A stretch of DNA of 64,000 nt from NCBI GenBank assembly GCA_051313645.2, contig JBNRSN020000031.1:36084001-36148000 (forward strand). The letters run 5' to 3'. Of this stretch, positions 8,494-63,667 are shown piece by piece. Within the stretch, counting starts at the first letter, position 1; each line of letters starts with the position of its first letter. The notes under the pieces were generated by a model, which saw only the letters and a program-made list of their open reading frames with translations, was not told the origin of the DNA and made no database searches. Position numbers and translations under genes: made by a program. The DNA comes from Centroscyllium fabricii (lineage: Eukaryota).

Positions 8494-8504
8494 GAAAAAA
8501 GCAT
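6528..8504 (-). CDS. CR1 ORF2 fragment (linker + RT, 658 aa, uninterrupted, lacks endonuclease)
   Basis: KENPKAFYGY, KSPGPD and the full RT motif set with no stops. The first few codons lie outside the element. Confidence 0.9.
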   Translation of the reverse strand: MLFSIKGGGGKQREPWMSRDICKLMKKKRGAFNEYKRLKTEEALGEYKKYRGDLKKEIRKAKRGHEITMASKIKENPKAFYGYIKNKRITRERVGPIKDDSGKLCVEPEEVGEVLNEFFSSVFTKERDDTDIEIGQSVGGVIKDITTTREEVLEILGGLKVDKSPGPDAMFPRLLFEAREELAGPLSQIFRTSLASGDVPEDWRTANVVPLFKKGSRDKPGNYRPISLTSVVGKVMEKILRDKISSHLDKQGLIRDSQHGFVKGKSCLTNLLEFFEEVTKRVDEGSTVDVVYMDFSKAFDKVPHRRLITKVRAHGIQGNLAQWIENWLGDRRQRVMVEGCFCDWKPVTSGVPQGSVLGPLLFLVYINDLDMGVGGMISKFADDTKIGRVVNNDEDSKGLQEDIDLMVNWAEKWQMEFNPEKCEVIQFGRPNGVREYTMNNKTLNRTKEQRDLGVQVHSSLKVAGHVNKVVKKAYGILAFINQGIVYKSREVMLNLYNTLVRPQLEYCVQFWSPHFRKDVVALERVQRRFTRMIPGLGDLCYEERLDRLGLFALEKRRWRGDMIEVYKIMRGHDRVDKGALFPLVGESSTRGHRFKIRGGRFRGEVRRNFFTQRVVEVWNSLPVRVVETETIATFKKYLDQHMKDHNIQGYGPGAGKWG

Positions 8505-8545
8505 GACCTAGAAAATAACTCTTCCGAATTTGAGCTCCAGATTTT

Positions 8546-8843
8546 AACAATAATAATAATAATTCAACTTTTATTGTCATTATGCAATGTACAAGTACAT
8601 GAACAATGAAATGTGATCTGGCAAGCTCCCAAGAATCCAGCAAAGCCGCTGCGTCTGTGCGCGCCGCCATTCCATCTTTCCCATCATTCCGACAATCTTC
8701 AACCAACCGCCCCTCCCCGGGGCTCCTTTCGTGACCACCTGCACCTGGTATTCCCTGGTGGGCACCCATCCAAGTACTAACCAGGCCTGGCTCTGCTTAG
8801 CTTCCAAGCCTTGCCCAGTGACCCTGTCCCTAGTCCCAGGAAC
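8546..8843 (-). mobile_element. 5S rRNA-derived SINE (SINE3 type) with Rex1-like tail, copy 1
   Basis: Reverse strand reads GGAAGCTAAGCAGAGCCAGGCCTGGTTAGTACTTGGATGGG..GGGAATACCAGGTGC (5S internal control region) and ends GACAATAAAGTTGAA(TTA)n. Confidence 0.85.
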
Positions 8844-9420: not shown

Positions 9421-9539
9421 TTTAACTAGACTTAGGAAAGCCCTTCTTAGAGATTCGTATGTTGGGCATCCTGATACATTTTATAATCAAGTACATTGTA
9501 TTCCAGGAACATTTTTTTTCAGTATTGTATTCCGTAGAC

Positions 9540-11008
9540 TGTATTGCCGGTATTTCTTATATTCAGTACATTGTATTGCAGGTATTTCTTATATGCAGTA
9601 CATTGTCTTGCAGGTATTTCTTATATGCAGTACATTGTCTTGCAGGTATTTCTTATATGCAGTACATTGTATTGCAGGTATTTCTTATATTCAGTACATT
9701 GTATTGCCGGTATTTCTTATATTCAGTACATTGTATTCCTGGTATTCTTATATTCAATACATTGTATTCCCTGTATGACTTATATTCAGTACATTGTATT
9801 CCCGGTACAGCTTATATTCAGTACATTGTATTCCCTGTACATTGTATTCCCTGTATGACTTGTAGTCAGTACATTGTATTCCCTGGACATTGTATTCCCT
9901 GTATGACTTGTAGTCAGTACATTGTATTCCCTGGACATTGTATTCCCTGTATGACATGTAGTCAGTACATTGTATTCCCTGGACATTGTATTCCCTGTAT
10001 GACTTGTAGTCAGTACATTGTATTCCCTGGACATTGTATTCCCTGTGTGACTTGTAGTCACTACATTGTATTCCCTGGACATTGTATTCCCTGTATGACT
10101 TGTAGTCAGTACATTGTATTCCCTGGACATTGTATTCCCTGTATGACTTGTTGTCAGTACATTGTATTCCCTGGACATTGTATTCCCTGTATGACTTGTA
10201 GTCAGTACATTGTATTCCCTGGACATTGTATTCCCTGTGTGACTTGTAGTCAGTACATTGTATTCCCTGGATATTGTATTCCCTGTATGACTTGTAGTCA
10301 GTACATTGTATTCCCTGGACATTGTATTCCCTGTATGACTTGTTGTCAGTACATTGTATTCCCTGGACATTGTATTCCCTGTATGACTTGTAGTCAGTAC
10401 ATTGTATTCCCTGGACATTGTATTCCCTGTATGACTTGTAGTCAGTACATTGTATTCCCTGGACATTGTATTTCCTGTATGACTTGTTGTCAGTACATTG
10501 TATTCCCTGGACATTGTATTCCCTGTATGACTTGTTGTCAGTACATTGTATTCCCTGGACATTGTATTCCCTGTATGACTTGTAGTCAGTACATTGTATT
10601 CCCAGGACATTGTATTCCCTGTATGACTTGTGGTTAGTACATTGTATTCCCTGGACATTGTATTTCCTGTATGACTTGTAGTCAGTACATTGTATTCCCT
10701 GGACATTGTATTCCCTGTATGACTTGTAGTCAGTACATTGTATTCCCTGGACATTGTATTCCCTGTATGACTTGTAGTCAGTACATTGTATTCCCTGGAC
10801 ATTGTATTCCCTGTATGACTTGTAGTCAGTACATTGTATTCCCTGGACATTGTATTCCCTGTGTGACTTGTAGTCAGTACATTGTATTCCCTGGACATTG
10901 TATTCCCTGTATGACTTGTGGTTAGTACATTGTATTCCCTGGACATTGTATTTCCTGTGTGACTTGTAGTCAGTACATTGTATTCCCTGGACATTGTATT
11001 CCCTGTAT
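9540..11008. repeat. Minisatellite: ~32-bp units grading into about 24 copies of a 48-bp unit
   Basis: 48-mer CAGTACATTGTATTCCCTGGACATTGTATTCCCTGTATGACTTGTAGT; left 32-mer CAGTACATTGTATTGCAGGTATTTCTTATATG. Confidence 0.95.
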
Positions 11009-13772: not shown

Positions 13773-13879
13773 GGTATTGGCAGAATTGGATCCAGTTATA
13801 ATGCCCCGGTGGTCAGCACACTCGCTAGCGCGGTTCAAGCGTGAATGATGGCCCTTGACTAAGGTACCACAGGGCACCT

Positions 13880-15163
13880 GTGAAGCTGGATCCTTGACTT
13901 CCTGTCGGGCCATCACCAGATGGTGAGGATGGGCAGCATCACCTCCTCTCCACTGACCCTTAACACGGGAGTCCCCCAGGGATGTGTGCTCAGTCCTCTC
14001 CTGTACTCCCTGTACACCCACGACTGCGTGGCCACGCAGAGCTCCAACGTCATCATCAAATTCGCGGATGACACGACGGTGGCGGGCCTGATCTCCAACG
14101 GCGACGAGACAGCCTACAGGGGTGAGGTTAGAGCCCTGACACATTGGTGCCAGGAAAACAACCTCTCCCTCAACATCAACAAGACCAAGGAGCTGATTGT
14201 GGACTTCAGGAAGCGGGGAGGAGCACACACCCCAATCACCATCGACGGGACTGCAGTAGAGAGGGTCAGCAGCTTCAACTTCCTCAGTGTACACATCACC
14301 GAGGACCTCACATGGACTGAACATACCAGAAATGTGATGAAGAAAGCACAACAACGCCTCTTCAACCTCTGACCTCTGAAAAAGTTCGGCATGAGCCCCC
14401 GCATCCTCAGGTCGTTCTACAGCAGCACCATTGAAAGCATCCTGACTGGCTGCATCACCGCCTGGGACGGGAGCTGCACTGCCCTCAACCCCAAAGCATT
14501 GCAGAGGGTGGTGCGGACGGCCCAGCACATCACTGGAGGTGAGCTTCCCTCCCTCCAGGACACCTACACCAGTCGCTGTCTGTTGAAGACCCGGAGGATC
14601 ATCAGGGACTCCAGTCACCCAAGACACAGACTGTTCTTGCTGCTACCGTCTGGCAGACGGTGTCGCAGCATCAGGTCCCGGACCAGCAGACTCCAGGACA
14701 GCTTCTACCACCAGGCCATCAGGCTGCTGAACAGCTAACAACGGCTCACTGCAACAGCCCGGGGCCAGCACTCCCCGCTCTCCCCCCACCCCCCCCCACC
14801 CCCCGGTCAGTATACGGTGAATCACCGAGAGGCACCTCACCACCGCATCCTACTGCTCCCTTCACCATTGCACCCTACCACCACCGCACCTTCACTCCAC
14901 CCAGAACCCTCACACCTCGACACCCTTACCTACACTCCGCACTTTTGCTCAAACCCACCTGTGTATTTTTTTTGTATTTATATTGTATATTTACCAGTGT
15001 GTATATTTACCAGTGTGTATATTTTGTAAACTTGTAACTTTGTAAATTTGGTTTGATGATTTTTTTTTTGTTACTGCACTGTTAAGGAGCTCCACACTCA
15101 GGTTTTTCACTCGCATTTATACCTGTATATCTGTGACGTGACAAGAAACAAATCTGAATCTGA
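13880..15163 (+). mobile_element. Rex1/Babar LINE 3' fragment
   Basis: [56 protein letters not shown]; tail GTGACAAGAAAC(AATCTG)n. Confidence 0.92.
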
Positions 15164-17025: not shown

Positions 17026-18194
17026 GGGGGTCAATTTTCCTGGAGCCGACAGACGGCTTTTTCGGTGGCCGGAGAGGGAAAATCGCTAAAACGGGGGGGT
17101 CGCGGCCCCTCCCGCCGGTTTCCCGCCAGCTTGTCAGTTTCACCCGGTGGGTCCGATCAGCCCGCTTCAGTCCCGCCCGGCATCGGCGGGGATGGTCGTT
17201 CGGCTCATTGGGGCCCTTAATTGGCATCTGTAGTGCTATTTTAAGGGCTTTTCCCACGCAAAACCCACCGTTGAAACCTGGCAGAGACACATTCGGCTTG
17301 GTGACTTCCACCTTCAAGGCATTGAAGCACCTGCTGCAGAATGGCTTCCTGGCCTCCAGCATGCTGGAGGTCTAACTGTCTCCCTAGGGTGCCCAAGATT
17401 AGTGTGAAAAAACCTTTAAAAAAAACTTACCTTCCAGCTGCTTCCTAGTGCTTGACAGTGGTTAGCACTGTTGCCTCACAGCTCTGGAGAGCCGGGTTCA
17501 AATCCAGCCTCGGGTACTATCTGTGTGGAGTTTGCACATTCTCCTCGTGTCTGCGTGGGTTTCCTCCGGGTGCTCCGGTTTCCTCCCACAGTCCAAAGAT
17601 GTGCGGGTTAGGTTGATTGGCCATGATAAATTGACCCTTAGTGTTAGGGGGATTGAATATGTGGGGTTACGGGGAGAGGGTGGGATATGTGTCGGTGCAG
17701 GCTCGAGAGGGATATGGGGGACAAAGTAGGGACAGGGTACTGGGTTTGGATGATCAGCCATGATCTCATTGAATGGCGGAGCAGGCTCGAAGGGCCGAAT
17801 GGCCTACTCCTGCTCCTATCTTCTATGTTTGTTTCTATGATAGGCGTTCTGTAGCTGTCAGGAGCCTGCCAGTGAAACAAAGCACTTAGAGCTGTCAATC
17901 ATCAACTTGCCGCCAGTTTCTGTTGACAGTGGATTGTGATGTCACAATTCACTGAAACCACAGAAACAAACACACCAGACCACTGAGAGCTGTCAATCAT
18001 CGGCTCTGCTGCTTGCACAGTGGGAAGCTTTCTATCTAAAATCAATCAATTGGCAGGGGCTTCCCACACTCGGGAATTTAATTGGCCAATTGAGCCAAAA
18101 TTGCATGGGGCTCCCACACCCTTCAGAAAGCGGGAAGAAAAAGTGATCAGCGGGGAACCCACCAATTCCCCACCCCTTGAGGAAAATCGTCCCC
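17026..18194. mobile_element. GC-rich MITE, PIF/Harbinger-like; same family as 48713-49564 (opposite orientation)
   Basis: Imperfect TIRs GGGGGTCAATTTTCC / GGAAAATCGTCCCC; 3-bp TSD ATA/ATG; CR1 resumes after it. Confidence 0.7.
17456..17838 (+). mobile_element. HE1-like V-SINE
   Basis: tRNA head (GGTTAGCACTG..GGTTCAAATCC), V core TCTGTGTGGAGTTTGCAC..CCCACAGTCCAAAGA, CR1 tail. Confidence 0.92.
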
Positions 18195-23893: not shown

Positions 23894-24296
23894 TATAGAA
23901 ACATAGAAGATAGGAGCAGGAGTCGGCCATTCGGCCCTTCGAGCCTGCTCCGCCATTCAATGAGATCATGGCTGATCATCCAAACCCAGTACCCTGTCCC
24001 TGCCTTGTCCCCATATCCCTCGATCCCTATCGAACCTGCACCAAAACACATCCCACCCTATCCCCGTAACCCCACATATTCAATCACCCTAACACTAAGG
24101 GTCAATTTATCCTGGCCAATCAACCTAACCCGCACATCTTTGGACTGTGGGAGGAAACCGGAGCACCCGGAGGAAACCCACGCAGACACGGGGAGAATGT
24201 GCAAACTCCACACAGATAGTACCCGAGGCCGGATTTGAACCCGGGTCTCCAGTGCTGTGAGGCAACAGTGCTAACCACTATGCCACCGTGCCGCCC
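23894..24296 (-). mobile_element. HE1-like V-SINE, full length
   Basis: tRNA head, V core and CR1 tail, all on the minus strand. Confidence 0.93.
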
Positions 24297-28017: not shown

Positions 28018-29220
28018 AATTCAATTCAATTCAATTTTATTGTCATTGCAGAGTACTAGTACAATACAATGAAATGAAGACTCGCTGCTCCAGATATTAG
28101 TGCAAATAAGTTACATACAATTGCATACAATAAAGTACATTTCAGGTGTGCAGATACTGGAATTTTTTGTTAGAGTTCAGGAGGCTGACAGCCCTGGGGA
28201 AGAAGCTGTTCTTGAATCTAGTCGTGCGGGTGCAAATTGATCTGTAGCGTCTCCTGGAGGGCAGGGGGGCGAACAGACTATGTCTGGGGTGTGTGGGGTC
28301 TTTAATAATGTTCTGAGACCTCCGTAGCATTTAAGGGCAGCACGGTGGCATAGTGGTTAGCACTGTTGCCTTACAGCACTGGAGACCCGGGTTCAAATCC
28401 AGCCTCGGGTGACTATCTGTGTGGAGTTTGCACATTCTCCCCGTGTCTGCGTGGGTTTCCTCCGGGTGCTCCGGTTTCCTCCCACAGTCCAAAGATGTGC
28501 GGGTTAGGTTGATTGACCAGGATAAATTGACCCTTAGTGTTAGGGGGATTGAATATGTGGGGTTGGTGGGATGTGTGTCGGTGCAGGCTCGATAGGGATC
28601 GAGGGATATGGGGACAAGGCAGGGACAGGGTGCTGGGTTTGGATGATCAGCCATGATCCCATTGAATGGCGGAGCAGGCTCGAAGGGCAGAATGGCCGAC
28701 TCCTGCTCCTATCTTCTATGTTTCTATGGATGAACCCTAATATTAAATGCCAAATAACAGAGGGTAGAGCAGAGAAACAGGCCATGCGGCCTAACTGGCC
28801 CGTGCCGTATTGATGCTCCACATGAGCCTCCTCCCACTCCTCTTCATCTAACCCAGCCAACCTAACCTTCTGTTCCTTTATCACTCATGTGTTTATTTAT
28901 GAGGGAATCAAGGGATTTGGGGATCGGGCCGGAAAGTGGAGTTGAAGGCGAAGATCAGCCGTGATCTCATTGAATGGCGGAGCAGGCTCGAAGGGCCGAA
29001 TGGTCTACTCCTGCTCCTATCTTCTATGTTTCTATGTTTGAGGTAGGTGCATTCAATTGATGGTAGCTGGGTGCCAGTGATTGGTTGGGCAGTTTTGACT
29101 ACCCGCTGCAGGGCCTTCCAGTCCGAGATGGTGCAGTTTCCAGACTGTGAAGCAGCTTGTCAGTATGCTTTCGATTGTGCAGCGGTAGAAGTTGGTGAGG
29201 ATGCCGGATGTCAGCTTGCT
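28018..29220 (-). mobile_element. Rex1/Babar LINE 3' fragment interrupted by SINE and CR1 tails
   Basis: IIKDPTHPRHSLFAPLPSRRRYRSI..FKNSFFPRAV; tail GACAATAAAA(TTGAA)n. Confidence 0.85.
28335..28728 (+). mobile_element. HE1-like V-SINE, full length
   Basis: GGGCAGCACGGTGGCATAGTGGTTAGC head, V core, CTATGTTTCTATG tail. Confidence 0.93.
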
Positions 29221-32191: not shown

Positions 32192-33870
32192 CGAGCCAGA
32201 AATTCAGGTCGGAGGCTTCCCGCGTGTGCGAGCCTCCAACCTGCACTTACCCAGCGCGCCGGCCGTTGAGCCGTGGGCCCGCGTGGAATTCCGATGCGGG
32301 GCCTTCCTGAACTGCCGGCGCGCCGCGCTCCCAGAACCCAGCGGCGAAGATAGTGCGAGGGATCGCGCGGGGAGCCAATCGGAGCACAGAATGCTCCATT
32401 CATAAGTTTGACCGGAAGAGCTGTCAAAAGTATGAAAACTACAAGCCCCAAAACCTCAGTAAATATTCAAATACATTTTTTTAAAACACCACATTTTTAA
32501 AAATAACTATCAATTACATAAATTAACTATTTTAAACAAAAAATTAAAAAAATTGGAAAAAAAATCACGTTTTTAACGGGGCTAAAAATAAACTTACCTT
32601 TCTTTAAAGTATTTAAGAACATAAGAAATAGGAGCAGGAGTCGGCCAATCGGCCCCTCGAGCCTGCTCCACCATTCAACAAGATCATGGCTGATCTGATC
32701 CTAACCTCAATTTTATTTTTACTCTCCATCTCGCCCAAACCCATGTGATCTCCCGGGAGAGGCGAAAAACCAGATTAAAAAACCCAGTGGCCAATTTGGG
32801 AGGAAAAATCTGGGAAATTCCTCTCCGACCCATCTAGGCGATCGAAAACTGGTCCAGGAAATCACATGGCTGATCTGAACCTAGACTCACGTCCACTTAC
32901 CTGCCCGCTCACCATAACCCCTAATTCCCTTTACTTCCAGGAAACTGTCTGTCTCTGTTTTACATTTATTCAATGTAGTAGCTTCCACAGCTCTCTGGGG
33001 CAGCAAATTCCACAGACCTACCACCCTCTGAGTGAAGAAGTTTCTCCTCATCTCAGTTTTGAAAGGGCAGCCCCTTATTATCAGATTATGCCCCCTAATT
33101 CTAGTCTCACCCACCATTGGGAACATTATCAAAGATGTGCGGGTTAGGTTGATTGGCCAGGATAAATTGACCCTTAGTGTTAGGGGGATTGAATATGTGG
33201 GGTTACGGGGATAGGGTGGGATATGTGTCGGTGCAGGCTCGATAGGGCTCGATAGGGATATGGGGAGAAGGCAGGGACAGGGTACTGGGTTTGGATGATC
33301 AGCCATGATTTCATTGAATGGCGGAGCAGGCTCGAAGGGCCGAATGGCCTACTCCTGCTCCTATCTTCTATCACCGCATCCACCCGATCCAACCCCTTCA
33401 CAATCTTATATGTTTCAATAAGATTGCCTCTCATTCTTCTGAACTTCAATGAGTAGAGGCCCAATCTACTCAACCTTTCGTCATATGTCAGCCCCCTCAT
33501 CTCCGGAATTAACCTAGTGAACCTTCTTTGCACTGCCTCGAGAGCAAGTATGTCCTTTCTTAAATTTAAAATAAAACACCTGTGGGAAAAAATGTTTTAA
33601 ATTGAATTAATTCACCACTTAGCTTCTGCACATGAAAATATCAGCCGCATCTTTTTCCAATACTCACCCGCACACAGACCGGTTAAAAACAAAAATCGGA
33701 AGTGCATTGAGCACGTGCTGCCGCGCACGCGTTCCGACCCCTGATACTTTCTGTCGGGATCAGAAGTGCCAGTTTCGCGCGCATGCGCGGTGCATGCACG
33801 AGACCGGCACTTCCGATGGGCCTACGGGTGAGTACCCAGCGCGTGCGTTGGGAGCCGAATTTCTGGGCCA
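32192..33870. mobile_element. GC-rich Harbinger-like MITE carrying nested CR1 fragments and an HE1-like SINE piece
   Basis: TIRs GAGCCAGAAATTC / GAATTTCTGGGCC, the same type as 53575-54335. Confidence 0.65.
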
Positions 33871-33876
33871 TAATCA

Positions 33877-34399
33877 ATTCAATTCAATTCAAGTTTTATT
33901 GTCATTGCAGAGTACTAGTACAATACAACGAGACGAAGACTCGACGCTCCCGAGAGTAGCGCAAATAAATTACATGCAAATTGCATACAGTAAAGTACAT
34001 TTTCAGGTGTGCAGGTACCGGAGTTTATTTTTTTAGAGTTCAGGAGGCTGACAGCCCTGGGGAAGAAGCTGTTCTGAAATCTAGTCGTGCGGGTGCAAAT
34101 TGATCTGTAGCGTCTCCCGGAGGGCAGGGGGGCGAACAGACTGTGGCTGGGGTGTGTATGGGGTCTTTAATAATGTTCAGAGACCTCCGTAGGCAGCGTT
34201 TGAGGTAGATGCTTTCCATTGATGGTAGCTGGGTACCGGTGATTCGTTGGGCAGTTTTGACTACCTGCTGCAGGGTCCTCCGGTCCGAGATAGTGCAATT
34301 TCCATACCAGACTGTGATGCAGCTTGTCAGTATGCTTTCGATTGTGCAGCGGTAGAAGTTGGAGAGGATGCCGGATGACAGCCTGGCTTTCTTCAGCTT
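33877..34399 (-). mobile_element. Rex1/Babar LINE 3' fragment (same family as 28018-29220)
   Basis: FYRCTIESILTSCITVWYG; tail GACAATAAAAC(TTGAA)n. Confidence 0.9.
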
Positions 34400-37360: not shown

Positions 37361-37820
37361 ACCTTCAGAAATTCTGTCCTCGGGTCTGTACCCTTAATTG
37401 GTTATTTTGGGGGTGGGGGAAATGTACAGTTAATTTCAAGAGTCTTCATATTTCATTTTTCAGTCAATTGCACCCCCCCCCCCCCCCCCACACAAGTACA
37501 TCCACACTTTTGTGCAAATGGTTGATCTGTGCTTTTTTTTTTAATTAAAGAAATTTAATTGATACAGCAACTTATCATGGTCCCCAGAACGTCCCACAGC
37601 ACTTTACATTATCAATGAATTATTAGTTGAAGTGCAGTTGCTGTTGCTTTGTGAACAACCACAGCAGTTTATTTGCACATAGCAAGGCCCCACCAACAGC
37701 AAACAAATGAATGACCAGTTAAGTTGTTTGAAGTGTCGTTGCTGGGGGAGAAATGTTGGCCTGGACAGCAGGAGAATTGCCTACTCGCTTTCGAATTGCA
37801 ACGTGGGCTTGCTTCGTCCT

Positions 37821-38128
37821 GTTCCTGGGACTAGGGACAGGGTCACTGGCAAGGCTTGGAAGCTAAGCAGAGCCAGGCCTGCTTAGTACTTGGATGGGTG
37901 ACCACCAGGGAATACCAGGTGCAGAAGGGCACGAAAGGAGCCCCGGGGAGGGGCGGTTGGCTGAAGATTATCGGAATGATCGAAAGCTGGAATGGCGGCG
38001 CGCACAGATGCAGCGGCTTTGCTGGACTCTTGGGAGCGTGCAAGATCACATTTCGTTGTTCATGTACTTGTACATTGTATAATGACAATAAAGTTGAATT
38101 ATTATTATTATTATTATTATTAATAATA
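37821..38128 (+). mobile_element. 5S rRNA-derived SINE with Rex1-like tail, copy 2
   Basis: 37858-37928 aligns ungapped to the 3' part of vertebrate 5S rRNA (about 61/71 by manual count); (TTA)n tail. Confidence 0.88.
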
Positions 38129-38354
38129 GGTGTGTGGACAAGGATTCAGTTCAATGCCTCCTCCAAAAGACAGCACCTCTGACAGTGCAGCACTCCCTTG
38201 GTACTCCCCTAAGTGTCAGCTTAGACCTTGTGGTGAAGTCCATATTGGAGCTTGAACCCAGAACCTTCGGGCTCGGGTGAGAGCTACCAACTTGGCCTAG
38301 TTGACACTTCTGCTGGAGTCGACACTTCTGCTGGAGTCGACACTTAAGAGTTCG

Positions 38355-39637
38355 AGGGTGCGAAATTTAAGGGTGTAGCGCCGGCCGTTAAGGTCGGTTT
38401 TGCTGAAAAAAATGACAGACACCTCACTTCCAGCGCGGAACACAGCGGCCGCCATTTTGGGGGAGGCCGTTGGCGCTGCCGTTGCCTGCGCTCGCCTCCT
38501 ACATGTAAATATGCAGATTATGACGTCAATCGGCGTGCAATGCCTGAATTGAGACACGAATGTGATTTAGGATGTCGCCACTCTGGATTACCGCCCTCTC
38601 CAAAGCACGCACGGAAGAACGTGCGTGCAGCAGTACTACAGAGACGCTGCCAGCGCTTCTTAAAGTGACACACACTTCTTTCGGGTAAGTTTTGATTTTA
38701 GCTTTTGGACTTTTGTTTTTTATATTTTATTGGAGTAGTAATAATAATAATAATAATAATTCAACTTTATTGTCATTATACAATGTACAAGTACATGAAC
38801 AACGAAATGTGATCTTGCAAGCTCCCAAGAGTCCAGCAAAGCCGCTGCATCTGTGCGCGCCGCCATTCCATCTTTCCATCATTCCGACAATCTTCAGCCA
38901 ACCGCCCCTCCCCGGGGCTCCTTTCGTGACCTTCTGCACCTGGTATTCCCTGGTGGTCGCCCATCCAAGTACTAACCAGGCCTGGCTCTGCTTAGCTTCC
39001 AAGCCTTGCCAGTGACCCTGTCCCTAGTCCCAGGAACAGGGCTGCGTGTTTGGTGCAAGAGTTGTTAGTGTGCAGGGAGTGCTGCTGGACACTTGCAAGA
39101 CTTTGGATGTTCAAGGAAGGCTTCTGCGAACACCACTTTGCTCCCAGTCCTGGGGGCTGTAGTTGCAGCCCCACCCCCCCCCCCTTGGACTGCAGCATGA
39201 CATGGAGATGAAGCAGAGGCAGCAAAGGGGACCGACTGCTCGCGGAGGAAGAAGTGGAAGAGCCATTTGTGTTGGTGCTGCAGCACTTTTACCACTTGTT
39301 ATGTGCAGAAGATAATTCAGCTTTAGTAGCTGCAGACTGCCTAGTTTTGAATGACTTTAAATTTTTTAGCCAGAAGGCAGTTTCCCTTTAAGGGCTAGAG
39401 ACTGCCTTGAAAGCTAGCAGCCTAGCTTTAAGAAAAGGCGGCGGCGCTCCAGCCATGCGACCTTGGGGCCCCTGCTGAGCGCACTGCCTGTCTGCAGCGC
39501 GTTCGGCCCTAGGCTGTGCGCTAAATTAGTAGACTGCACCAAATTGACGTGCTGCCTGCATTTCTGAATGGGCGTGGGCATATCTCGCCTCGCGGTGCAC
39601 GTGCCTAATTTTGGGCCTTATCGAATTTCCCGACCCC
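38355..39637. mobile_element. GC-rich Harbinger-like MITE hosting SINE3 copy 3
   Basis: Imperfect TIRs GGGTGCGAAATTT / GAATTTCCCGACCC; no clear TSD. Confidence 0.5.
38739..39037 (-). mobile_element. 5S rRNA-derived SINE with Rex1-like tail, copy 3
   Basis: Near-identical reverse complement of 37821-38128. Confidence 0.88.
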
Positions 39638-39868: not shown

Positions 39869-41375
39869 AGATAGATAAGATAATTTTATTGCCATATGTA
39901 ACTGGTACAATGGAATGCTTACTCCCCATTCACTCCCACAATATAAGTATAACATATTAACTAGAAGCAGGAGCAGGCCATTCGGCCCTTCGAGCCTGCT
40001 CCGCCATTCAATGAGATCATGGCTGATCATCCAAACCCAGCACCCCGCCCCTGCCCTCTCCCCAAATCCCTATCGAGTCTGCATCGACACATATCCCACC
40101 CTATCCCCATATATTCAATCCCCCTAACACTAAGGTCAATTTATCATGGCCAATCAACCTCACCCGCACATCTTTGGTATAAAAAGCAAAAGTAAAAAAA
40201 CAAGTATAAATAGAAAAATAATAAACAAACAACTGCAGTTAGCAGTTCAGTAGGCGCACTGCCTGTGGGTAGAAACTGTTCCTGAACCTGCTGGTCCTGG
40301 TTCAGATGCTGCGGTACCGACGGCCGGACCGCAGGAGGGAGAACAGATCGTGCCCAGGGTGGTTGAGGTCCTGGATGATGGAGCGGGCCTTGTTCCGACA
40401 CCTGGTCTGGAAGATCTCCTCGATAGATGGAAGTGCAGACCCGATGATCTTTTCTGCCGTCCTCACGACCCTCTGAATGGCTTTCCTGTCCTGAGCAGTG
40501 GTGTTACCATACCGCACAGTGACGCTGTAGCATAGCCACTAGGGGGAGACACTCTGGTCTCCCGAGGACGTTATAATCCCCATTCCAGAGTTGGTCCCGC
40601 CCCTGTTTCCCCATTGGGTGGTTGGATCAACAGTTCTGGTTCCTGATTGGTCCTGCGGGCTGTCAGTCAAAGGCCCCATGATGCTTTGCGGTTACGCGCC
40701 TTTTGTGAGTTCGTGGTGTTTGGATTGAAACCAATAAAGACCTGTTAAAGCTTGCTCCGCGATCTTTCGACTTTTTATTGATTTTAAAGAGTGGGGAACG
40801 GCCGTTTCCTACAACGCCACCCGGCAGGACGCTCTCTATGGTGCCGCGGTAAACGTTCATAAGCCATTGTGTGCTTATGCTGCATTTCCTCAGGCACCGT
40901 AGAGGGTAGAGTTGCTGGTGTGCCTTCTTCAGCATTGCCTCAGTGTTGTAGTTCCAGGTCAGGTCATCAGAGATCTGCAGACCCAGGAATCGGAAGCAAC
41001 TGACTACTTCTACCGATAATTGGTCGGTGGTTCCCTCGATGGCTTCTGAAGTCCACGATGAGTTCCTTAGTCTTGCTGGCATTCAGGGCAAGGTTGTTAT
41101 TCTTACACCATCTCATCAGCTGAACTATCTCATCCCTGTACTCCGTCTCATCCTCGTTGCTAATCAGGGCGATTACCGTGGTGTCATCGGCAAACTTTAT
41201 TATCCGGTTGTTGCTGTGTCGGGCTGTACAATCGTTTGTAAACAGAGAATACAACCGAGGACGGAGGCAGCAGCCTTGTGGCGCTCCGGCATTGAGGACC
41301 AGTGTGGATGAGGTGTTGTTCCCTATTTTCACCACTTGAGGCCTACCAGTCAGGAAGTCCAGAATCCAGTTGCAA
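39869..41375 (-). mobile_element. Rex1/Babar LINE fragment containing an HE1-like piece (39962-40176) and a solo LTR
   Basis: [36 protein letters not shown]; tail GGCAATAAAATTATCTTATC. Confidence 0.88.
40526..40813 (+). mobile_element. Solo LTR
   Basis: TGTAG..CTACA inverted termini; 4-bp TSD ACGC; AATAAA at ~40733. Confidence 0.85.
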
Positions 41376-55805: not shown

Positions 55806-58299
55806 GTTTTTAAAAAGCTGTTTCTCTCTCCACAAATGTTGCCTGACCTGCTGAGTGTTTTCAGCATTCTCTGCTTTTGCTGTTCGTTACTGTTCTAACA
55901 GCCATTAGAAACATCGAAGATAGGAGCAGGAGTCGGCCATTCGGCCCCTCGAGCCTGCTCCGCCATTCAATGAGATCATGGCTGATCATCCAAATTCAAT
56001 ACCCTGTTCCTACCTTCTCCCCATATCCCTTGATCCCTTTAGCCTTAAGAAATATATCTAACTCCTTCTTGAATATATTTAATGAAGTGGCCTCTACTGC
56101 CATGTGTGGTAGAGAATTCCACAGGTTCACCACTCTCTGGGTGAAGAAATTCCTCCTCATCTTGTCCTAAATGGCTTACCCCTTATCGTTAGACTGTGAC
56201 CCCTGGTTCTGGACTCCCTGACCGTCGGGAACATCCTTCCTGCATCTAGTCTGTCCAGTCCTGTTAGAATGTTATAAGTTTCAATGAGATCCCCTCTCAT
56301 TCTTCTAAACACCAGTGAGTATAAGCCAAATCAACCCAATCGCTCGTCATATGTCATTCCTGCCATCCCAGGTATCAGCCTGGTGAATCTTCGCTGCACT
56401 TCCCCCATGGCAAGAAAATCGTTCCTCAGAAAAGGCGACCAAATCTGCACACAATACTCAAGGTGTGGTCTCACCAAGGTACAACTGCAGCAAGAAATCC
56501 TTGTTCCTGTACTTGAATCCTCTCGCTACAAACGGCGGCACGGTGGCATAGTGGTTAGCACTGTTGCCTTACAGCACTAGAGACCCGGGTTCAAATCCAG
56601 CCTCGGGTACTATCTGTGTGGAGTTTACACATTCTCCCCATGTCTGCGTGGGTTTCCTCCAGGTGCTCCAGTTTCCTCCCACAGTCCAAAGATGTGCGGG
56701 TTAGGTTGATTGGACATGATAAATTGACCCTTAGTGTTAGGGGGATTGAATATGTGGGGTTGCAGGGATAGGGTGGGATGTGCGTCGCAGGCTCGATAGG
56801 AATCGAGGGATATGGGGACAAGGCAGGGACAGGGTACTGGGTTTGGATCAGCCATGATCTCATTGAATGGCGGAGCAGGCTCGAAGGGCCGAATGGCCTA
56901 CTCCTGCTCCTATCTTCTATGTTTCTATGTCTATGTAACATACCATTTGCCTTCTTAACCGCCTGGTGCACCTGCATGCTTACCTTCAGCGACTGGTGCA
57001 CAAGGACACCCAGGTCTCATTGCACTTCCCCTTCTCCCAATCTATTGCCATTCATATAATAATCTGCCTTCCTGTTTTTGCCACCAAAGTGGATAACCTC
57101 ACATTTATCCACATTATACTGCATCTGCCCAATCAAACAACCTGTCCAAATCATACTGGAGTTTCTCGGCATCCTCCTCACAGCACACACGCCCACCCAG
57201 CTTTGTGTCGTCTGCAAACATGGAGATATTACATCGAGTTCCCTCATCTAGATCATTAATATATATTGTGAATAGCTGGGGTCCAAGGACCGATCCCTGC
57301 GGTACCCCACTAGTCACTGCCTGCCACTCAGAAAAAGACCCATTTTTTCCAACTCTTTGCTTTCTGTCTGCCAACCAGTTCTTTATCCAAGTCAATGCCT
57401 TGCCCCCAATCTCATGTGCCTTAACTTTACATGCTAATCTCTTATACGGGACCTTATCGAACGCCTTTTGAAAGTCCAAATACACCACATCCACTGGTTC
57501 TCCCTTAACTATTTTACCAGTTACATCCTCAAAAAATTCCAGTAGATTAGTCGAGCACGATTTACCCTCTGTAATCGATGTTGACTTTGTCCAATACGGT
57601 CACTGTTTTCCACGTGCTCAGCTATTACATCTTTTTTAATGGACTCTAGCATTTTCCCCACTACCGATGTCAGGCTTACTAGTCTGTAATTCCCCGTTTT
57701 CTCTCTACCACCTTTTTTGAATAGTGGGGTAACATTAGTTTCCCTCCAATCCATGGGTACTGTTCCAGAGTCTGTCGAATTTTGGAAGATGACCAGCAAT
57801 GCATCTACTATTTCTAGAGCCACTTACTTAAGTACCCTAGAATGTAGATTATTAGACCCTGGGGATATATCGGCCTTCAATCCCATCAATTTCCCTAACA
57901 CCATTTCCCTACAAATACTGACTTCTTTCAGTTCCTCCCTTTCATCAGACCCTATGTTCCTTGACAACACTGGGAGGTTATTTGTGTCCTCCTTTGTGAA
58001 GCCAGAACCAAAGTATGTATTTAATTGGTCAGCCATTTCTTTGTTCCCCATTACAAATTTCCCTGATTCTGACTACCAGGGACCTACGCTTGACTTCACC
58101 AATCTTTTTCTCTTCACATATCTATAAAAGCTTTTACAGTCAGTTTTTATGTTCCCTGCGAGCGTACTCTCATAATCTATTTTCCCCCTCTTAATTAATC
58201 CCTTTGTCCTCCTTTGTTGAATCCTAAACTGCTCCCAGTCGTCAGGTTTACTGCTTTTTCTGGCCAATTTATATGTCCTCTCCATGGATCTTATGCTAT

Positions 58300-58518
58300 T
58301 GTAGCGCCGGCAGGCCTAGGAACCACACGTGAGCCAGAGCTAGAGAAAACACAGCTTTATTACACTAAGTCAAAACAAGAAAGAGAGTGAACCACTCGAG
58401 ACAGGCATATTTAAACGGTCCCGCGGTTGGTGACGTCATCGCGTCACCCGGATGAGCGGGGCTTTGCTCCGCGGAGTCCCCATGGCGGATTCGATGTCCC
58501 AGTGGGCGTACCGCCACA
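58300..58518 (-). repeat. 3' LTR (219 bp)
   Basis: Direct repeat of 62433-62677; preceded on the minus strand by the PPT TGGGGGGAGCTG. Confidence 0.95.
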
Positions 58519-58560
58519 CAGCTCCCCCCAGAATCCGTCCGGGAGGAATAGTGACAGTGT

Positions 58561-61263
58561 CTATGTATGCCGTTGGGGTGGCCGGATGATGCGGCCGGAC
58601 CGTGTTGCTTGTAGCCTCTGGTTCTGCGGTAGAGTGTGGGCGGGTTTTGTTGCGGGAGGGTGACCGCGTTGCGGTGGTTGTGCGGGGACCGTAGTCTCGC
58701 CCGCTATCACGTGTGCCGGCTTGAGCCGGTCTATTGTTACAGTGTCAGTCCTGTTACCCATTTGTAATTCGAAAGCTTTCGCTCCCGCCCGAAGCACTCT
58801 GCAGGGGCCATCGTAAGGTGGCTGTAGTGGGGATCGGTGTCCGTCGCGCCGGACGAACACAAATTTAGCATTTTTAATGTTCTCCGGCACCCGAGCTGCC
58901 GGCTCTCCGTGCCGGGCCACTGGTAGTGGCTGGAAAGCTCGTGCCGGGTTAGCAAAATCTTTTAAATACTGGTCGGCTGACCAGGGAGCGTTGGGCTCAG
59001 CCAGGAACTCGCCCGGCACCGTTAAAGTTTGGCCGTAGACGAGCTCCGCTGCCGAGGCGTTGAGGTCTTCTTTGACTGCCGAGCGCAGCCCGAGGAGGAC
59101 CCATGGAAGGCGATCGGTCCACGATGCGTCTTTTAGCGTGGCCCGTAGTGATGCCTTCATCGAGCGGTGGAACCGTTCACATAGGCCGTTCGCCTGTGGG
59201 TGGTATGCGGTGGTTCGGTGTAGTGTCACCCCGAGGTCGCGGGCGATGGCCGCCCATAATGCCGACGTAAATTGGGGTCCTCTGTCGGAGGTGATGTCTG
59301 TGGGCACGCCGAAGCGGGCGACCCAGGTGGCGATGAACGCCCTGGCCAAGTCCGTGGTGCCGGTGGCGGTGAGGGGGACTGCTTCTGGCCAGCGAGTGTT
59401 GCGGTCGACCATGGTCATTAGGTGCGTGTGGCCCCGGGATGGCGGTAGTGGCCCGACGAGATCGATGTGGACATGGTCAAAACGCCTGGCCGGTACTTTA
59501 AAATTTTCCAGCGGTGCCCTGATGTGCTTATGCACTTTGGAGCGCTGGCAGGCTATGCAGGAGCTGGCCCAGGCGCGGACGTCCTTGCGCAGGCCGCGCC
59601 ATACGAATCGGGCCGATATTAACTTAATGGACGCGCAGGCGCCGGGGTGGGACAGGTCATGGAGGGTCCTAAAAATATGTTGCCTCCAAGCGTGGGGCAC
59701 GACGGGCCTGGGTTGCGGTAAGGATACGTCGCAGCAGACGACGGTGGCAGCGGGGCCGTGCGCGATATTGGCCAAGTGGAGGCCGGGGAGATTAGTTGCT
59801 GCGTTGAGTAGGTCGGGGTCGGCCAGCTGGTCCGCGGCCAGCTGGGCGTAATCGACCGCCATTTGGGCGGCGTTAATGGTGGGGCGTGAGAGGCAGTCAG
59901 CGACCACGTTGTCGCGGCCGTAAATATGCTGGATGTCGGTTGTAAATTCCGACACGGCCGCGAGTTGGCGCTGCTGCCTGGCCGACCAGGGTTCAGCGAC
60001 CTTAGCCATCGCAAACGTGAGTGGCTTATGGTCGACGAAGGCTGTAAAGTGGCGGCCCTCCAAGAGGAAACGAAAATGTCGCACCGGCAGATGGAGAGCG
60101 AGCAGCTCCCTATCAAAGGCGCTGTATTTAACCTCTGGGGGCCGGAGTTGCCGGCTGAAAAAGGCCAAGGGCTGCCACGAGTTGCCGGTCCACTGCTCAA
60201 ATACGGCCCCGACCGCATGGTCGGAGGCGTCGGTGGTGAGGGCTACTCTGGCGTTGGGCCTAGGGTGGGCTAGGAGGGTGGCGTTTGCCAGGGCGGTTTT
60301 AGTTGCGGTAAAGGCGGTGGCGGCTTCGGCCGTCCACTCGACCGCAGCCTTATTGGACTGCCCGCGGGTGGCCTGGTATAAGGGGGCCATGAGAGCGGCT
60401 GCTCCCGGGATAAAGCGGTTATAAAAATTAACCATCCCCAGAAATTCCTGCAGCCCTTTAATGGAGTGCGGGCGGGGGAATTCTTGTACCGCCTGCACCT
60501 TAGAGGGCAGGGGTATGGCCCCTGTTTGGGAAATGCGGTGGCCGAGGAAGTCAATGGTCTCGAGGCCGAATTTACATTTAGTGGGGCTTAAGATAAGGCC
60601 GTGTTCGGTAAGGCGTTGGGACAGGGTCCTGAGGTGCAGGAGGTGTTCCTGGGGGGAGGTGCTGGCCACGAGGATGTCGTCTAAATAGACGAAGATGAAC
60701 TTCAAGTCCCGTAGGACCGAGTTCATGAGGCGCTGGAAGGCCTGGGCCGCGTTTTTAACGCCGAAGGGCATCCTAAGAAACTCGAAGAGTCCGAAGGGGG
60801 TAATGACGGCCGTTTTAGGAATGTCCGCCGGGTGCACCGGAACCTAGTGGTAGCCACGCACCAGGTCGATCTTAGAAAAGATCGTACAACCCACTAGTCT
60901 GGCGGAAAAATCCTGGATGTGGGGTACGGGGTACCTATCCGGGGTGGTGGCGTTGTTAAGGCGGCGGTAGTCGCCGCAGTGGCGCCAGCCTCCGTCGGGC
61001 TTGGGGGCTATATGGAGCGGAGAGGACCAGGGGCTGCTGGAGCGGCGGATTATACCGAGTTGTTCCATAGTGCGGAACTCGGTGCGCGCGATCTCCTGCT
61101 TGGCCGGGTCGAGCCTACGGGCGTGGGCATGGCCGGGAGGGCCTGCAGTAGTTATAAAATGTTCCACCCCGTGTTTGGCCTTGCGGGCGGTGAACGTGGG
61201 GTTGGTTAGGGCGGGGAACTCTGCCAGGAGCGTGCCGTAGGCATCGGAGTCCCTGTGGAGCAT
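58561..61263 (-). pseudogene. pol: Gypsy Pol (RT, RNase H, integrase) with one premature stop at 60844-60846 and a frameshift relative to gag-PR
   Basis: [36 protein letters not shown] zinc finger, HIDLVGP/SDRGPQF/CERFHR DDE triad, PYDGP. Confidence 0.92.
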
Positions 61264-62345
61264 GGGATGGTCGTCATGGTGTTTATATTTACCAAGCGGC
61301 GCCGAGTTACATCGACCAGTAGGCCGTAGGCGCAGAGGAAGTCTGCCCCGAGGAGGGGAGAAGTGACCTGGGCCGTTACAAAATTCCAGGTGTACGCGTG
61401 GCTTGCAAGGGTTATGGTTAGCTTGCGGGTGCCGTACGTTTTTATGTTGGAGCCGATGGCTGCCGCTAGTGGCGGGCCCCGGGTGCCTCGTTTGGTTTCT
61501 GCAGGGGAGGCTGGCACGATGCTGTGCTGCGCGCCTGTGTCGCAGAGGAACCTAAGGCCGGTACCGCTGTCTGTGGCGAAGAGCAGTGCTCCTGTGTGGC
61601 CTACAGACATGGTGGGGGCTGAGTTGGGCCGTGGCTTAAACGCGCATGGCTGGACGCAGCGGTGCGCTTTGTGTTCGAACCGCGTGTGGTAATAGCACCA
61701 GCCGGTGCTAGAGGGACGCGTTTGTCTGGGTGGGCGCGGGGCCCTGGGTTCAGGCGTAAAGTTGTGCCTGGGGGGTGATTGGCTGCGCTCTACCGATGCG
61801 GAGTTAGGGTCGCATGTGGTTGAGCGGGTGCGCTGCGCCTCCATGAGCCTGTCGGCCTCCTCTCCGAGCTCGTCATCGCTCCGGTGGCCAAGGGCCGCCA
61901 AGGCCGGTCTGATGGCGCGGGGCAGTTTAAGGAGGAAGACGGTGCGGAAGAGGGAGGCCGAGTTGGGTGTGAGCGCTTGCATCTGACCTAAGAGGTCCGA
62001 TGGGTCTGCGTCCCCGAGTTCGGGGAGGTCGAGGAGCTGGCAGTCGCGCTCAAATTGGGAGGGGGTAAATTTTTTGATAAGCGCGGCCTTAAGCGTTTCA
62101 TACCTGCCTGCGATGGGCACGCGCTGTATTTTTGACCACATCCGATCAATCGTCGTCTGTGGTAGGGCTGTGAACACCAGGTCGTAGCGGTCGTCCCCTT
62201 GGATGCCATGTGTGCGGCAGCTGGCCTCAATGCAGACGAACCAGGCCGCTGGCCGTTGCTCCCAGAACTCGGGTAGGGTTAGTCCACGTCTGGCGTTCTG
62301 TCCAGCTCCCTGCGTTCGTGGAGCTTGGTTTCTTGGGTTTACCAT
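61206..62345 (-). CDS. gag: Gypsy Gag + aspartic protease
   Basis: [14 protein letters not shown]-x2-H-x9-C-x3-C ([18 protein letters not shown]), FLCDTGA, LLGADFL; probable ATG at 62345. Confidence 0.88.
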
Positions 62346-62419
62346 GTTTTCTGATAAAAGTCTTTGGCTGGTGGTCCCAGATCCTGCGGCAGCTTTTCTT
62401 CTCTGGAAGTCGTTCCAGT

Positions 62420-62431
62420 TCGGGGTCACCA
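62420..62431 (-). other. Primer binding site, tRNA-Trp
   Basis: TGGTGACCCCGA one base after the 5' LTR, complementary to the tRNA-Trp 3' end TCGGGGTCACCA. Confidence 0.88.
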
Positions 62432-62432
62432 C

Positions 62433-62677
62433 TGTAGCGCCGGCAGGCCTAGGAACCACACGTGAGCCAGAGCTAGAGAAAACACAGCTTTATTACACTA
62501 AGTCAAAACAAGAAAGAGAGTGAACCACTCGAGACAGGCATATTTAAACGGTCCCGCGGTTGGTGACGTCATCGCGTCGGCCGACGTGATGACGTCATCG
62601 CGTCACCCGGTTGAGCGGGGCTTTGCTCCGCGGAGTCCCCGTGGCGGATTCGATGTCCCAGTGGGCGTTCCGCCACA
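62433..62677 (-). repeat. 5' LTR (245 bp)
   Basis: Differs from the 3' LTR by three substitutions and a 26-bp indel. Confidence 0.95.
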
Positions 62678-63667
62678 CTATCCCTAATTTCCCTTGTTAG
62701 CCACGGTTGAGTCACCTTTTTTGTTTTATTTTTATGCCAAACTGGGCTGAACAAATTCTGTAGTTCATCCATGCGATCTTTGAATGTTTGCCATTGCCTA
62801 TCCACCGTTAGCCCTTTGAGTGACATTCCCCAACAATCCTACCCAACGCGCGCCTCATACCATCGTAGTTTCCTTTATTTAAATTCAGGACCCTAGTCTC
62901 TGAGTCAACTACTTCACTCCATCTTAATGAAGAATTCTATCATATTATGATCGCTCCAACCCAAGGGGCCTCGCACAACAAGATTGCTAATTAATCCTTT
63001 CTCATTATATGCCAGGAAGTTGGCGGCTGTTGCTTTCCCCTGATATGCCATCCCCCTCAACAGTATCAAAAATGGCATATCTGTTTGAGAGGGGGATGAC
63101 CACAGGGGACTCCTGCACTACCTGCCTGCGCCTGCTACTCTGCCTGGTGGTCACCCATTCCCTTTTTGCCTGTGCAACCTTTAACTGCGGTGTGACCAAC
63201 TCCCTAAACGTGCTTTTCACGACTTCCTCAGCATCGCAAATGCTCCAGAATGCATCAAATCGCAGGTCTAACGCCGCAATGCGGTCTGCCAGTAGCTGCA
63301 GCTGGATACTCTTCCCGCACACATGGTCATCAGGGACACGGGAAGTGTCCCTGATTTCCCACATAGCGCAGGAGGAGCACACTACGGGGCCGGGCTCTCC
63401 TGCCATGACTGACCCTTTAATTAATTCAAATTAAATTAAATCAAATCAATACCACCAATTACATTACAGTTAAATGATATACTTAAGATCCATTGGTTGC
63501 TAGCACTAGAAACTGTAACCACAAAAAAAATAAAGACCTTCTAAACTATATAAAGTATGAAACTTAACTGTCAAACTAACTTGGTTGTACTCACCCAATG
63601 AGCTGCTCCCTCCTGCCCGCGTCTCGTTTTGAATCATGACGTGGCTCTGGAACGCCGCTGCCAGTCT

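What the first reader, a model, noticed from the sequence alone, without database searches (positions are those of the whole stretch)
37821..38128. 5S rRNA-promoter SINE with a Rex1/Babar LINE tail: three young copies, with candidate partner LINEs in the same window
Seen: three ~300-bp copies (8546-8843 -, 37821-38128 +, 38739-39037 -) share the 5' end GTTCCTGGGACTAGGG. About 70 nt then match the 5S rRNA A box, intermediate element and C box. The 5' third of 5S is replaced, the oligo-T terminator is lost, and the body has no TTTT run. The tail CATTTCATTGTTCATGTACTTGTACATTGCATAATGACAATAAAGTTGAATT aligns with the Rex1 tails at 28018-28090 and 33877-33950 (CATTTCATTGTATTGTACTAGTACTCTGCAATGACAATAAAATTGAATT). 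Known: SINE3-type elements use type 1 Pol III promoters, and SINEs borrow the 3' ends of their partner LINEs; 5S SINEs are uncommon. Inference: this is a Rex1-mobilised SINE3 family that I cannot match to a named shark repeat. The mid-body AAGATGG..GGCGGCGCGCACAGACGCAGCGGC may be a captured Rex1 5' end (bipartite LINE body).
Basis: partly seen in the sequence, partly recalled or inferred. Interest (0 to 1): 0.82.

Follow-up and report, generated by a model that had tools for sequence, protein, structure and literature searches.

The report
5S-promoter SINE built on Rex1 ends
This is a real, recently active short jumping-DNA family that joins a promoter taken from the 5S ribosomal RNA gene to the tail, and probably also the very start, of a Rex1-type retrotransposon, which would add a new donor to a known way of building such elements.

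Summary
Real. Three ~280-nt copies plus (ATT)n, 93.6-97.5% identical, with one shared 5' end and unrelated flanks; one sits inside an older repeat. All three carry 5S A/IE/C boxes (RF00001, E 0.002-0.019, below the gathering score). The last 83 nt match the 3' ends of two RT+PF09004 (Rex1/Babar-type) LINEs (scores 57-64 against at most 36 in 60 shuffles) and share a terminal hairpin. Identity is only ~70%, and a teleost relative matches almost as well, so these LINEs are kin of the partner, not shown to be it. New evidence for the bipartite idea: the 27 nt abutting the tail read MAARTDAAA; full-length relatives begin MAARTHREA or MAARAHREA (4-14 of 5000 shuffles reach this). Precedents: 5S + bipartite RTE SINEs (CoeSINE5, SINE-1_Pmo), Rex1-tailed SINE2-5_NV, and salmon OS-SINE1 (5S head, RSg-1 tail; RSg-1 = Rex1 is recalled). 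A 2018 Repbase survey found only RTE and Vingi 5' parts in SINE bodies. Verdict: new variant of a known kind. Dfam, Repbase and SINEBase unchecked; Pol III transcription and mobilisation inferred.

The parts
37821..38128 (+). SINE copy c2, full length, with (ATT)n tail
38739..39037 (-). SINE copy c3, full length; tail-to-tail with c2, 610 bp away, 97.5% identical to it
8546..8843 (-). SINE copy c1, full length; 11 differences set it apart from both c2 and c3
37821..37854 (+). c2 leader (34 nt) that replaces the 5' part of 5S; positions 1-18 can form a 7-bp hairpin; origin unknown, with a weak match to the window's abundant tRNA-type repeat
37855..37930 (+). c2 5S-derived internal promoter: A box ~37861-37875, intermediate element ~37878-37883 (one private change in c2), C box ~37891-37908; box limits use recalled Xenopus numbering. 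Same part in c1 8808-8733 and c3 39003-38928
37930..37991 (+). c2 purine-rich spacer (62 nt), origin unknown
   Evidence: no match above chance in the window: 150 and 65 of 200 shuffles score as well
37992..38018 (+). c2 27-nt segment resembling the 5' terminus and first nine codons of Rex1-type LINEs (reads MAARTDAAA); c1 8670-8644, c3 38866-38840
38018..38100 (+). c2 Rex1-type 3' UTR tail (83 nt) with terminal stem-loop ~38053-38085; c1 8644-8561, c3 38840-38758
33877..34399 (-). RexA-33k: 5'-truncated, frameshifted Rex1/Babar-type LINE ending in (TTGAA)n; relative of the tail donor
28018..29218 (-). RexA-28k: second copy of the same subfamily, in two pieces (28018-28327, 29036-29218) split by younger repeats
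13857..15160 (+). RexB: more distant Rex1-type LINE; tail has the same hairpin with two double-sided changes but no significant primary match
39885..41374 (-). RexC: third Rex1-type LINE, fragmented; tail similarity at chance level
37575..38283 (-). Older interspersed repeat (Deu/SacSINE1-like, name recalled) interrupted by c2; its two halves join up across the insertion and fix the 5' end of c2

Best explanation
A non-autonomous retrotransposon family of SINE3 type, built as leader + 5S internal promoter + spacer + Rex1 5' terminus + Rex1 3' UTR + (ATT)n. Shown in sequence: the modules, three independent full-length insertions, the tail homology and its hairpin. Inferred from established SINE biology: TFIIIA/TFIIIC bind the A/IE/C boxes; Pol III starts at or near the shared 5' end, reads through the T4-free body and stops at the first T run in the flank (about 30, 270 and 325 nt downstream); the RT/endonuclease of a Rex1 subfamily binds the 3' stem-loop and copies the RNA by target-primed reverse transcription, with slippage giving (ATT)n and no clear target duplication. 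Inferred origin: an internally deleted Rex1 (first ~30 nt joined to last ~85 nt) gained a 5S-derived head by template switch. My odds by step: SINE3 family 0.95; mobilised by a Rex1-type LINE 0.88; mid-body from a Rex1 5' end 0.7; active partner is the RexA subfamily seen here 0.25.
For: Same structure and 5' end in 3 of 3 copies, unrelated flanks, nesting in an older repeat. RF00001 hits. Tail: the two RexA 3' ends are the top hits in the masked window for all three copies, 57-64 against 27-36 for 60 shuffles of the c1 tail, and both alignments end at the 3' terminus of both elements. LINE identity: 391 of 617 candidates are homologues; nearly all of the 120 listed carry PF09004, many with RT; full-length relatives carry the peptides of both published Rex1 primers 549-552 nt apart, against a ~550-bp amplicon. 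Hairpin: same position in SINE, RexA, RexB and L002, loop CTTG/CTAG/CCTG; RexB has two double-sided changes. 5' piece: 7 full-length ORFs begin MA[AVS]R..REA; the SINE segment matches 20-23 of 27 nt of their best back-translations, ranks 1-3 among all window positions by that score, is reached by 4, 14 and 7 of 5000 body shuffles, and ends exactly where the tail homology starts. Three fetched LINE starts open with A[AG]NATGGCG or GAGATGGCG.
Against: Tail identity to RexA is only ~70% and the terminal repeat differs; RexB and RexC tails score at chance, 22-27. Whole ~90-nt tails fold no better than shuffles (z +0.86 to -1.29); only the last 37 nt do (z -2.2 to -4.0 for SINE, RexA and RexB; -0.65 for L002). 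The 5' piece is 27 nt and GC-rich, and is compared with back-translated gene predictions, mostly teleost. By BLOSUM score four other window positions beat it and 18-29 of 5000 shuffles reach it. Against real DNA of three LINE starts the match is weak (single comparisons p 0.008-0.69, summed p 0.007-0.04, starts picked by the motif). No full-length Rex1 from this genome was seen. The A box starts at +41/+42, against model position 51 in RF00001, so the leader is 9-10 nt short. No expression or mobilisation data.
Confidence: 0.68

Rival explanations
1. SINE3 with a plain Rex1 tail; the mid-body is unrelated sequence and the resemblance to the Rex1 start is chance. This is the OS-SINE1-type design without the Deu domain.
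For: Short GC-rich match; ATGGCG occurs 33 times in the window and in 20% of body shuffles; BLOSUM score not top-ranked; a Repbase-wide survey found only RTE and Vingi 5' parts in SINEs.
Against: Nucleotide-level score ranks top in the window, 4-14 of 5000 shuffles, and the match abuts the tail junction; the best-matching N-termini belong to the LINE subgroup closest to RexA (62-73% aa).
Confidence: 0.22
2. The tail, perhaps with the 5' piece, was taken from another Rex1-dependent SINE or non-autonomous element and not straight from the LINE, as reported for salmon SlmI. This is compatible with Rex1 mobilisation and would explain the divergent tail.
For: 70% tail identity and a different terminal repeat; three salmon SINEs share the RSg-1 tail; SINE-to-SINE tail transfer is in the title of a reference seen.
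Against: No such donor in this window: only the two RexA ends match the tail.
Confidence: 0.25
3. Not a self-propagating Pol III unit: copies of one chimeric retrogene driven by an outside promoter, or local duplication/conversion products.
For: Short leader relative to 5S; c2 and c3 lie 610 bp apart and are the closest pair; type 1 promoters are said to depend on upstream signals.
Against: Three unrelated flanks, clean insertion of c2 into an older repeat, all three boxes kept; python SINE-1_Pmo has its A box at about +39 (read by eye), so a short leader has precedent.
Confidence: 0.06
4. 5S rRNA pseudogenes or a variant 5S gene array.
For: RF00001 is the best family hit.
Against: 5' ~43 nt of 5S absent, terminator absent, ~170 nt of shared non-5S body, not tandem, below the gathering score.
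Confidence: 0.01

Closest known systems
CoeSINE5 (coelacanth), SINE-1_Pmo (python), HaSE3 (moth), Ped-1 (springhare): 5S head + RTE-derived body
   Same: 5S-derived head followed by LINE 5' and 3' pieces, ~240-350 nt; the python element has a similarly short leader (PMC5786205 main text and supplement passages; Ped-1).
   Different: Their LINE donor is RTE; here it is Rex1/Babar-type, and the 5' piece is the extreme start of the element, not an inner 5' UTR block.
OS-SINE1 (salmonids)
   Same: 5S head with a tail shared with the LINE RSg-1 (PMC3747384 Table 1). That RSg-1 belongs to Rex1/Babar is recalled; no paper I could read says so.
   Different: OS-SINE1 is a DeuSINE (Deu domain ~330 bp); this element has a ~90-nt body with no room for it. 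No LINE 5' piece is mentioned for OS-SINE1 in the passages seen.
SINE2-5_NV (Nematostella) with Rex1-24_NV
   Same: Listed SINE with a Rex1 partner (PMC3747384 Table 1).
   Different: tRNA head, cnidarian host.
SINE3-1 (zebrafish), AmnSINE1
   Same: 5S type 1 promoter head.
   Different: Deu domain and CR1/L2-type tail.
Described shark SINEs HE1, SacSINE1, CmiSINEs
   Same: Possible host group only (recalled resemblance of the surrounding repeats).
   Different: All have tRNA heads and CR1/L2 tails.

Membership tests
SINE3 (5S-derived SINE) | At least 60% identity to 5S rRNA over at least 60 nt (SINEBase definition) | tested here: met
   46 of 64 columns (72%) against the RF00001 consensus for c3, counted by eye; E 0.0023-0.019
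SINE3 (5S-derived SINE) | A box, intermediate element and C box present with native spacing | tested here: met
   Ungapped alignment across these positions in all three copies; private changes in c1 (C box) and c2 (IE); box limits recalled
SINE3 (5S-derived SINE) | Under 1 kb, interspersed, shared non-RNA body (not a pseudogene) | tested here: met
SINE3 (5S-derived SINE) | [quoted passage not shown] | not testable with these tools
   3 copies in 64 kb only; genome not available
SINE3 (5S-derived SINE) | Transcribed by Pol III | not testable with these tools
   No T4 run inside is compatible, not proof
Rex1/Babar clade (for the tail-donor LINEs) | RT carrying the published Rex1 primer sites about 550 bp apart | tested here: met
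   Met in 4 of 6 full-length relatives checked, 549-552 nt; the other two lack one of the two sites. The RexA fragments are truncated just past this region and are tied to those proteins by 62-73% aa identity
Rex1/Babar clade (for the tail-donor LINEs) | 3' UTR followed by 5-7 nt tandem repeats | tested here: met
   (TTGAA)n in both RexA copies
Rex1/Babar clade (for the tail-donor LINEs) | RT phylogeny with named Rex1 reference elements | not testable with these tools
   No named reference was available; the tree has only unnamed relatives and poor resolution around RexA
Stringent SINE/LINE pair | Shared 3' terminal sequence and stem-loop | tested here: met
Stringent SINE/LINE pair | The specific LINE subfamily is the contemporary partner | tested here: inconclusive
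   ~70% identity; a teleost relative is nearly as close
Bipartite-LINE SINE (Bov-tA / CoeSINE5 type) | Body contains a 5' piece of the same LINE clade just upstream of the 3' piece | tested here: inconclusive
   Leans positive: 4-14 of 5000 shuffles, abuts the tail; but 27 nt, heterologous references, weaker by BLOSUM and by direct DNA comparison
DeuSINE (OS-SINE1, SINE3-1, AmnSINE1) | Central Deu domain | tested here: not met
   Body too short; only an 11-nt word is shared with the window's Deu-like repeat, whose name is recalled; no Deu consensus could be read
5S rRNA gene or pseudogene | Full ~120 nt, helix I, oligo-T terminator, no shared extra body | tested here: not met
Any named Repbase/Dfam/SINEBase family | Consensus identity across all modules | not testable with these tools
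   Databases not available; SINEBase supplement not readable

The most novel reading that the evidence does not exclude
An undescribed, recently active 5S-promoter SINE that descends from a bipartite Rex1 derivative. This would make Rex1 a new clade among those known to give internally deleted derivatives and SINE bodies (RTE, Ingi, Vingi, R2 in the 2018 survey). In the boldest form, the ~30-nt Rex1 start is kept because Rex1 needs its 5' and 3' ends to pair, as one fetched full-length relative does, so the SINE is a natural ~110-nt minimal Rex1 substrate driven by Pol III.
Probability: 0.35. Interest if true: 0.65.

Novelty: new variant of a known kind. Interest (0 to 1): 0.48.

Why it matters
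The origin of SINE middle bodies is an open question. Kojima 2018 (PMC5786205) traced them to LINE 5' ends in only RTE and Vingi and left open whether that bias is sampling or mechanism. A Rex1 case would answer that in part, and is cheap to confirm with the genome in hand. The element also marks out candidate minimal cis signals for Rex1 retrotransposition (27-nt start, 83-nt tail, CNNG-loop hairpin) and a compact type 1 promoter with a 40-nt foreign leader that has evidently worked at new sites. Young copies could serve as insertion markers. If the 5' piece fails, it is one more SINE3 family with a design close to salmon OS-SINE1.

Tried and rejected
A 37-nt SINE pattern in GTDB genomes: 0 matches. 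SINE against phage records: no match. SINE reading frames as spurious proteins, to learn the host range: no candidate; one 1340-aa hit with 11 repeated stretches, not used. tRNA module in head or spacer: ARAGORN 0 genes and no Rfam tRNA hit at E<=10 locally. Ribozyme at the 5' end: one hammerhead hit, wrong strand, E 0.69, 19 bits against 48.5; rejected. Long-range pairing of the SINE's 5' piece with the tail arm: 16, 70 and 44 of 500 shuffles as good for the own arm, 15-36 for RexA-28k, 187-369 for RexA-33k; not established. Full-length Rex1 5' end in the window: none. A 5S-like hit at 63106-63158: no Rfam support and its translated context looked LINE-like to me; dismissed. Rex1 primers on the window DNA itself: at most 16 of 21 and 17 of 24, at unrelated places; uninformative. 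Tree: RexA pair 100/99, placement among relatives unresolved. Segmental duplication: rejected by flanks. Literature: nine answered searches with terms among SINE3, 5S rRNA, Rex1, Rex-Babar, RSg-1, OS-SINE1, bipartite, shark, DUF1891, plus one for the primers, showed no 5S SINE from cartilaginous fish and no bipartite Rex1 SINE in listings or in the passages read; subscription papers and Repbase Reports are not covered. PMC3242629 is not held. Supplements of PMC3531059 and PMC5499810 and file 1 of PMC4824008 could not be read and may bear on naming and on the clade of RSg-1. The metagenome and viral contig collections stayed unchecked.

Full report
Observation. A self-comparison of the window finds three copies of a ~300-nt element at 8546-8843 (-, c1), 37821-38128 (+, c2) and 38739-39037 (-, c3). 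They align end to end from one shared 5' nucleotide to an (ATT)n tail, and the flanks are unrelated. Core identities are 93.6%, 95.4% and 97.5%. Five diagnostic motifs each occur exactly three times. With c2 removed, its flanks join into one older repeat that aligns at 64-67% across the junction with three other copies of that repeat. This shows an independent insertion with no visible target duplication and fixes the 5' end within a base or two.

Head. Nothing in the window reaches an Rfam gathering score. At E<=1 there are 7 hits, of which 3 are RF00001 on the three copies (E 0.0023-0.019); the other 4 are miRNA models on palindromic repeats. The good alignment covers model positions ~51-113, the region of the A box, intermediate element and C box (box limits recalled from Xenopus). 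Primers printed in PMC4635592 for the 5' part of 5S find at most 10 of 21 matches, while the 3' primer finds 15-16 of 21. The A box begins at +41/+42, 9-10 nt earlier than in 5S. I first took this as a problem for Pol III start-site placement, but python SINE-1_Pmo has it at about +39 and CoeSINE5 at about +48 (read by eye). No copy has TTTT.

Tail. The last 90 nt before the microsatellite, scanned over the masked window, hit the 3' ends at ~28.0 kb and ~33.9 kb with scores 57-64; the best other site scores 30-31 and 60 shuffles of the c1 tail reach 27-36. The shared stretch is 83 nt at ~70% identity. Upstream of those ends lie broken ORF pieces with a sub-threshold PF09004 match and 391 homologues among 617 candidates; the 120 listed are 52-73% identical, mostly fish proteins with PF09004, many with RT. 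Full-length relatives carry the peptides of both published Rex1 primers 549-552 nt apart in 4 of 6 checked, matching the ~550-bp Rex1 amplicon, and the window copies end in the short tandem repeat described for Rex1. I therefore call them Rex1/Babar-type; no named reference could be put in the tree. Two more distant Rex1-type copies (RexB, RexC) do not match the tail above chance. The terminal ~33 nt form the same hairpin in SINE, RexA, RexB and a fetched relative, with a CNNG loop and two double-sided changes in RexB; whole tails fold no better than shuffles. A scan of GTDB with a LINE alignment returned 18 loci from 101 stretches, evidently animal DNA within prokaryote assemblies. The tail of one (L002, teleost-like by its protein neighbours) is 78% identical to the SINE over 51 nt and scores 52-55. 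So the tail is typical of a wide Rex1 subgroup, and RexA is not singled out as the partner.

Mid-body. Three fetched LINE starts open with an ATGGCG motif (L003, L004, L010). Direct DNA comparison with the SINE body is weak (summed p 0.007-0.04, with selection bias). A search with the N-terminal 130 aa of one full-length protein gave 19 hits among 584 candidates. Seven begin, at or near the start, MAVRTHREA, MAARAHREA, MAAREHREA, MAARTHREA, MAAREQREA, MASRAHREA or MAARVQREA. The other hits were left out of the training set: the query itself, three more distant types, and fused or truncated entries. The SINE's 27 nt before the tail read MAARTDAAA and match 20-23 of 27 nt of the best back-translations. 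By that score the three copies rank 1-3 of all window positions (21.3 against 20.6 next), and 4, 14 and 7 of 5000 body shuffles reach it; by BLOSUM score four other positions rank higher and 18-29 of 5000 shuffles reach it. The segment ends exactly where the tail homology starts. The proteins with these starts that are in the tree are 62-73% identical to RexA-33k over the C-terminus, among its closer relatives. I had noticed the likeness to the query's own start before the search, so the test is only partly blind. I put the bipartite reading at about 0.7. The 34-nt leader and the 62-nt spacer remain unexplained.

Mechanism. Most likely Pol III transcription from the internal 5S promoter, termination in the flank, and target-primed reverse transcription by a Rex1 protein that recognises the 3' hairpin. 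The origin is probably an internally deleted Rex1 that gained a 5S-derived head. The modules and homologies are shown; transcription, partner and order of events are inferred.

Comparison with the literature. PMC5786205 (Kojima 2018; main text parts 1-4 of 5 and supplement passages) reports that only RTE and Vingi 5' regions were found in SINE bodies, that only RTE, Ingi, Vingi and R2 are known to make bipartite derivatives, and describes 5S + RTE5' + RTE3' families; 'Rex' does not occur in its text or supplement. PMC7245038 (passages; supplements searched without hits) says vertebrate SINE3 families are moved by CR1. PMC3747384 (passages and Table 1 excerpts) lists OS-SINE1 (5S, Deu, RSg-1 tail) and SINE2-5_NV (tRNA, Rex1-24_NV). 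PMC3272025 and PMC5135761 (passages) confirm the shared RSg-1 tail. That RSg-1 is a Rex1/Babar element is my recall; if right, 5S head + Rex1 tail is already known. PMC10946416 (passages) lists 5S SINEs from reptiles, insects, fish and mammals, with no cartilaginous fish in the part of the table I saw. PMC5499810, PMC2746220, PMC4824008, PMC6274825, PMC5753468, PMC3531059, PMC4635592 and PMC3728117 were seen as passages only. That the host is a shark rests on recalled likeness of the surrounding repeats and was not tested.

Verdict. Each module pairing has a precedent; the new part is a Rex1 5'+3' body under a 5S promoter, which has moderate support. Novelty: new variant of a known kind. Interest 0.48, up to about 0.65 if the bipartite origin and the lack of a curated name are both confirmed.

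Noticed in passing
L004:509-570 and L004:3630-3759: The 5' end of this full-length Rex1-type LINE is complementary to a stretch of its own 3' UTR just before the terminal hairpin (duplex -46.4 kcal/mol against -30.4 +/- 4.7; 2 of 500 shuffles), though a plain complement alignment scores this site 26 against 27 for a site inside the ORF. GCTCC near several 5' ends and GGAGC ~60-70 nt before several 3' ends hint that it may be general. One element only.
   Followed up: partly
window 8545/8546 and 6435-8545 (-): The tail of c1 abuts, in the same orientation, the 5'-truncated end of a young CR1-type LINE (659-aa open frame, 95.7% identical to the copy at 4128-5630). No (ATT)n remnant follows the CR1 3' end. 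Either CR1 inserted just after c1 or this is a template-switch chimera.
   Followed up: partly
window 37821-39037: c2 and c3 form a tail-to-tail inverted pair, 97.5% identical, 610 bp apart, sharing 11 differences from c1: a subfamily, local conversion or chance.
   Followed up: no
window 37831-37849 (leader) against 17727-17744, 23986-24001, 33273-33288, 56825-56840: 18 of 19 aligned positions of the leader match the window's most abundant tRNA-type repeat (1 and 7 of 200 shuffles); the leader may be borrowed from it.
   Followed up: partly
window 37855-37925: The head is about 60 of 70 nt identical to coelacanth CoeSINE5 and shares a few departures from 5S with it (by eye); shared head ancestry or convergence.
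   Followed up: no
window 4128-5630 (+) and 6435-7936 (-): Two young CR1-type copies, 95.7% identical, face each other tail to tail about 800 bp apart.
   Followed up: no
window 58300-62678: Gypsy-type LTR retrotransposon with long open frames on the minus strand and ~220-245 bp terminal repeats at 88% identity; family name from my reading of the translation.
   Followed up: no
window 9481-11008: Tandem array with a 48-bp period built from 16-bp subunits.
   Followed up: no
L001-L018: 18 GTDB contigs encode Rex1-like LINE proteins, which points to animal host DNA inside these prokaryote assemblies.
   Followed up: partly
P0001-P0138: PF09004, named ALKBH8_N in Pfam, is almost always at the C-terminus of these LINE reverse transcriptases, so many 'AlkB homologue 8 N-terminal domain' proteins in fish are retrotransposon fragments.
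   Followed up: no
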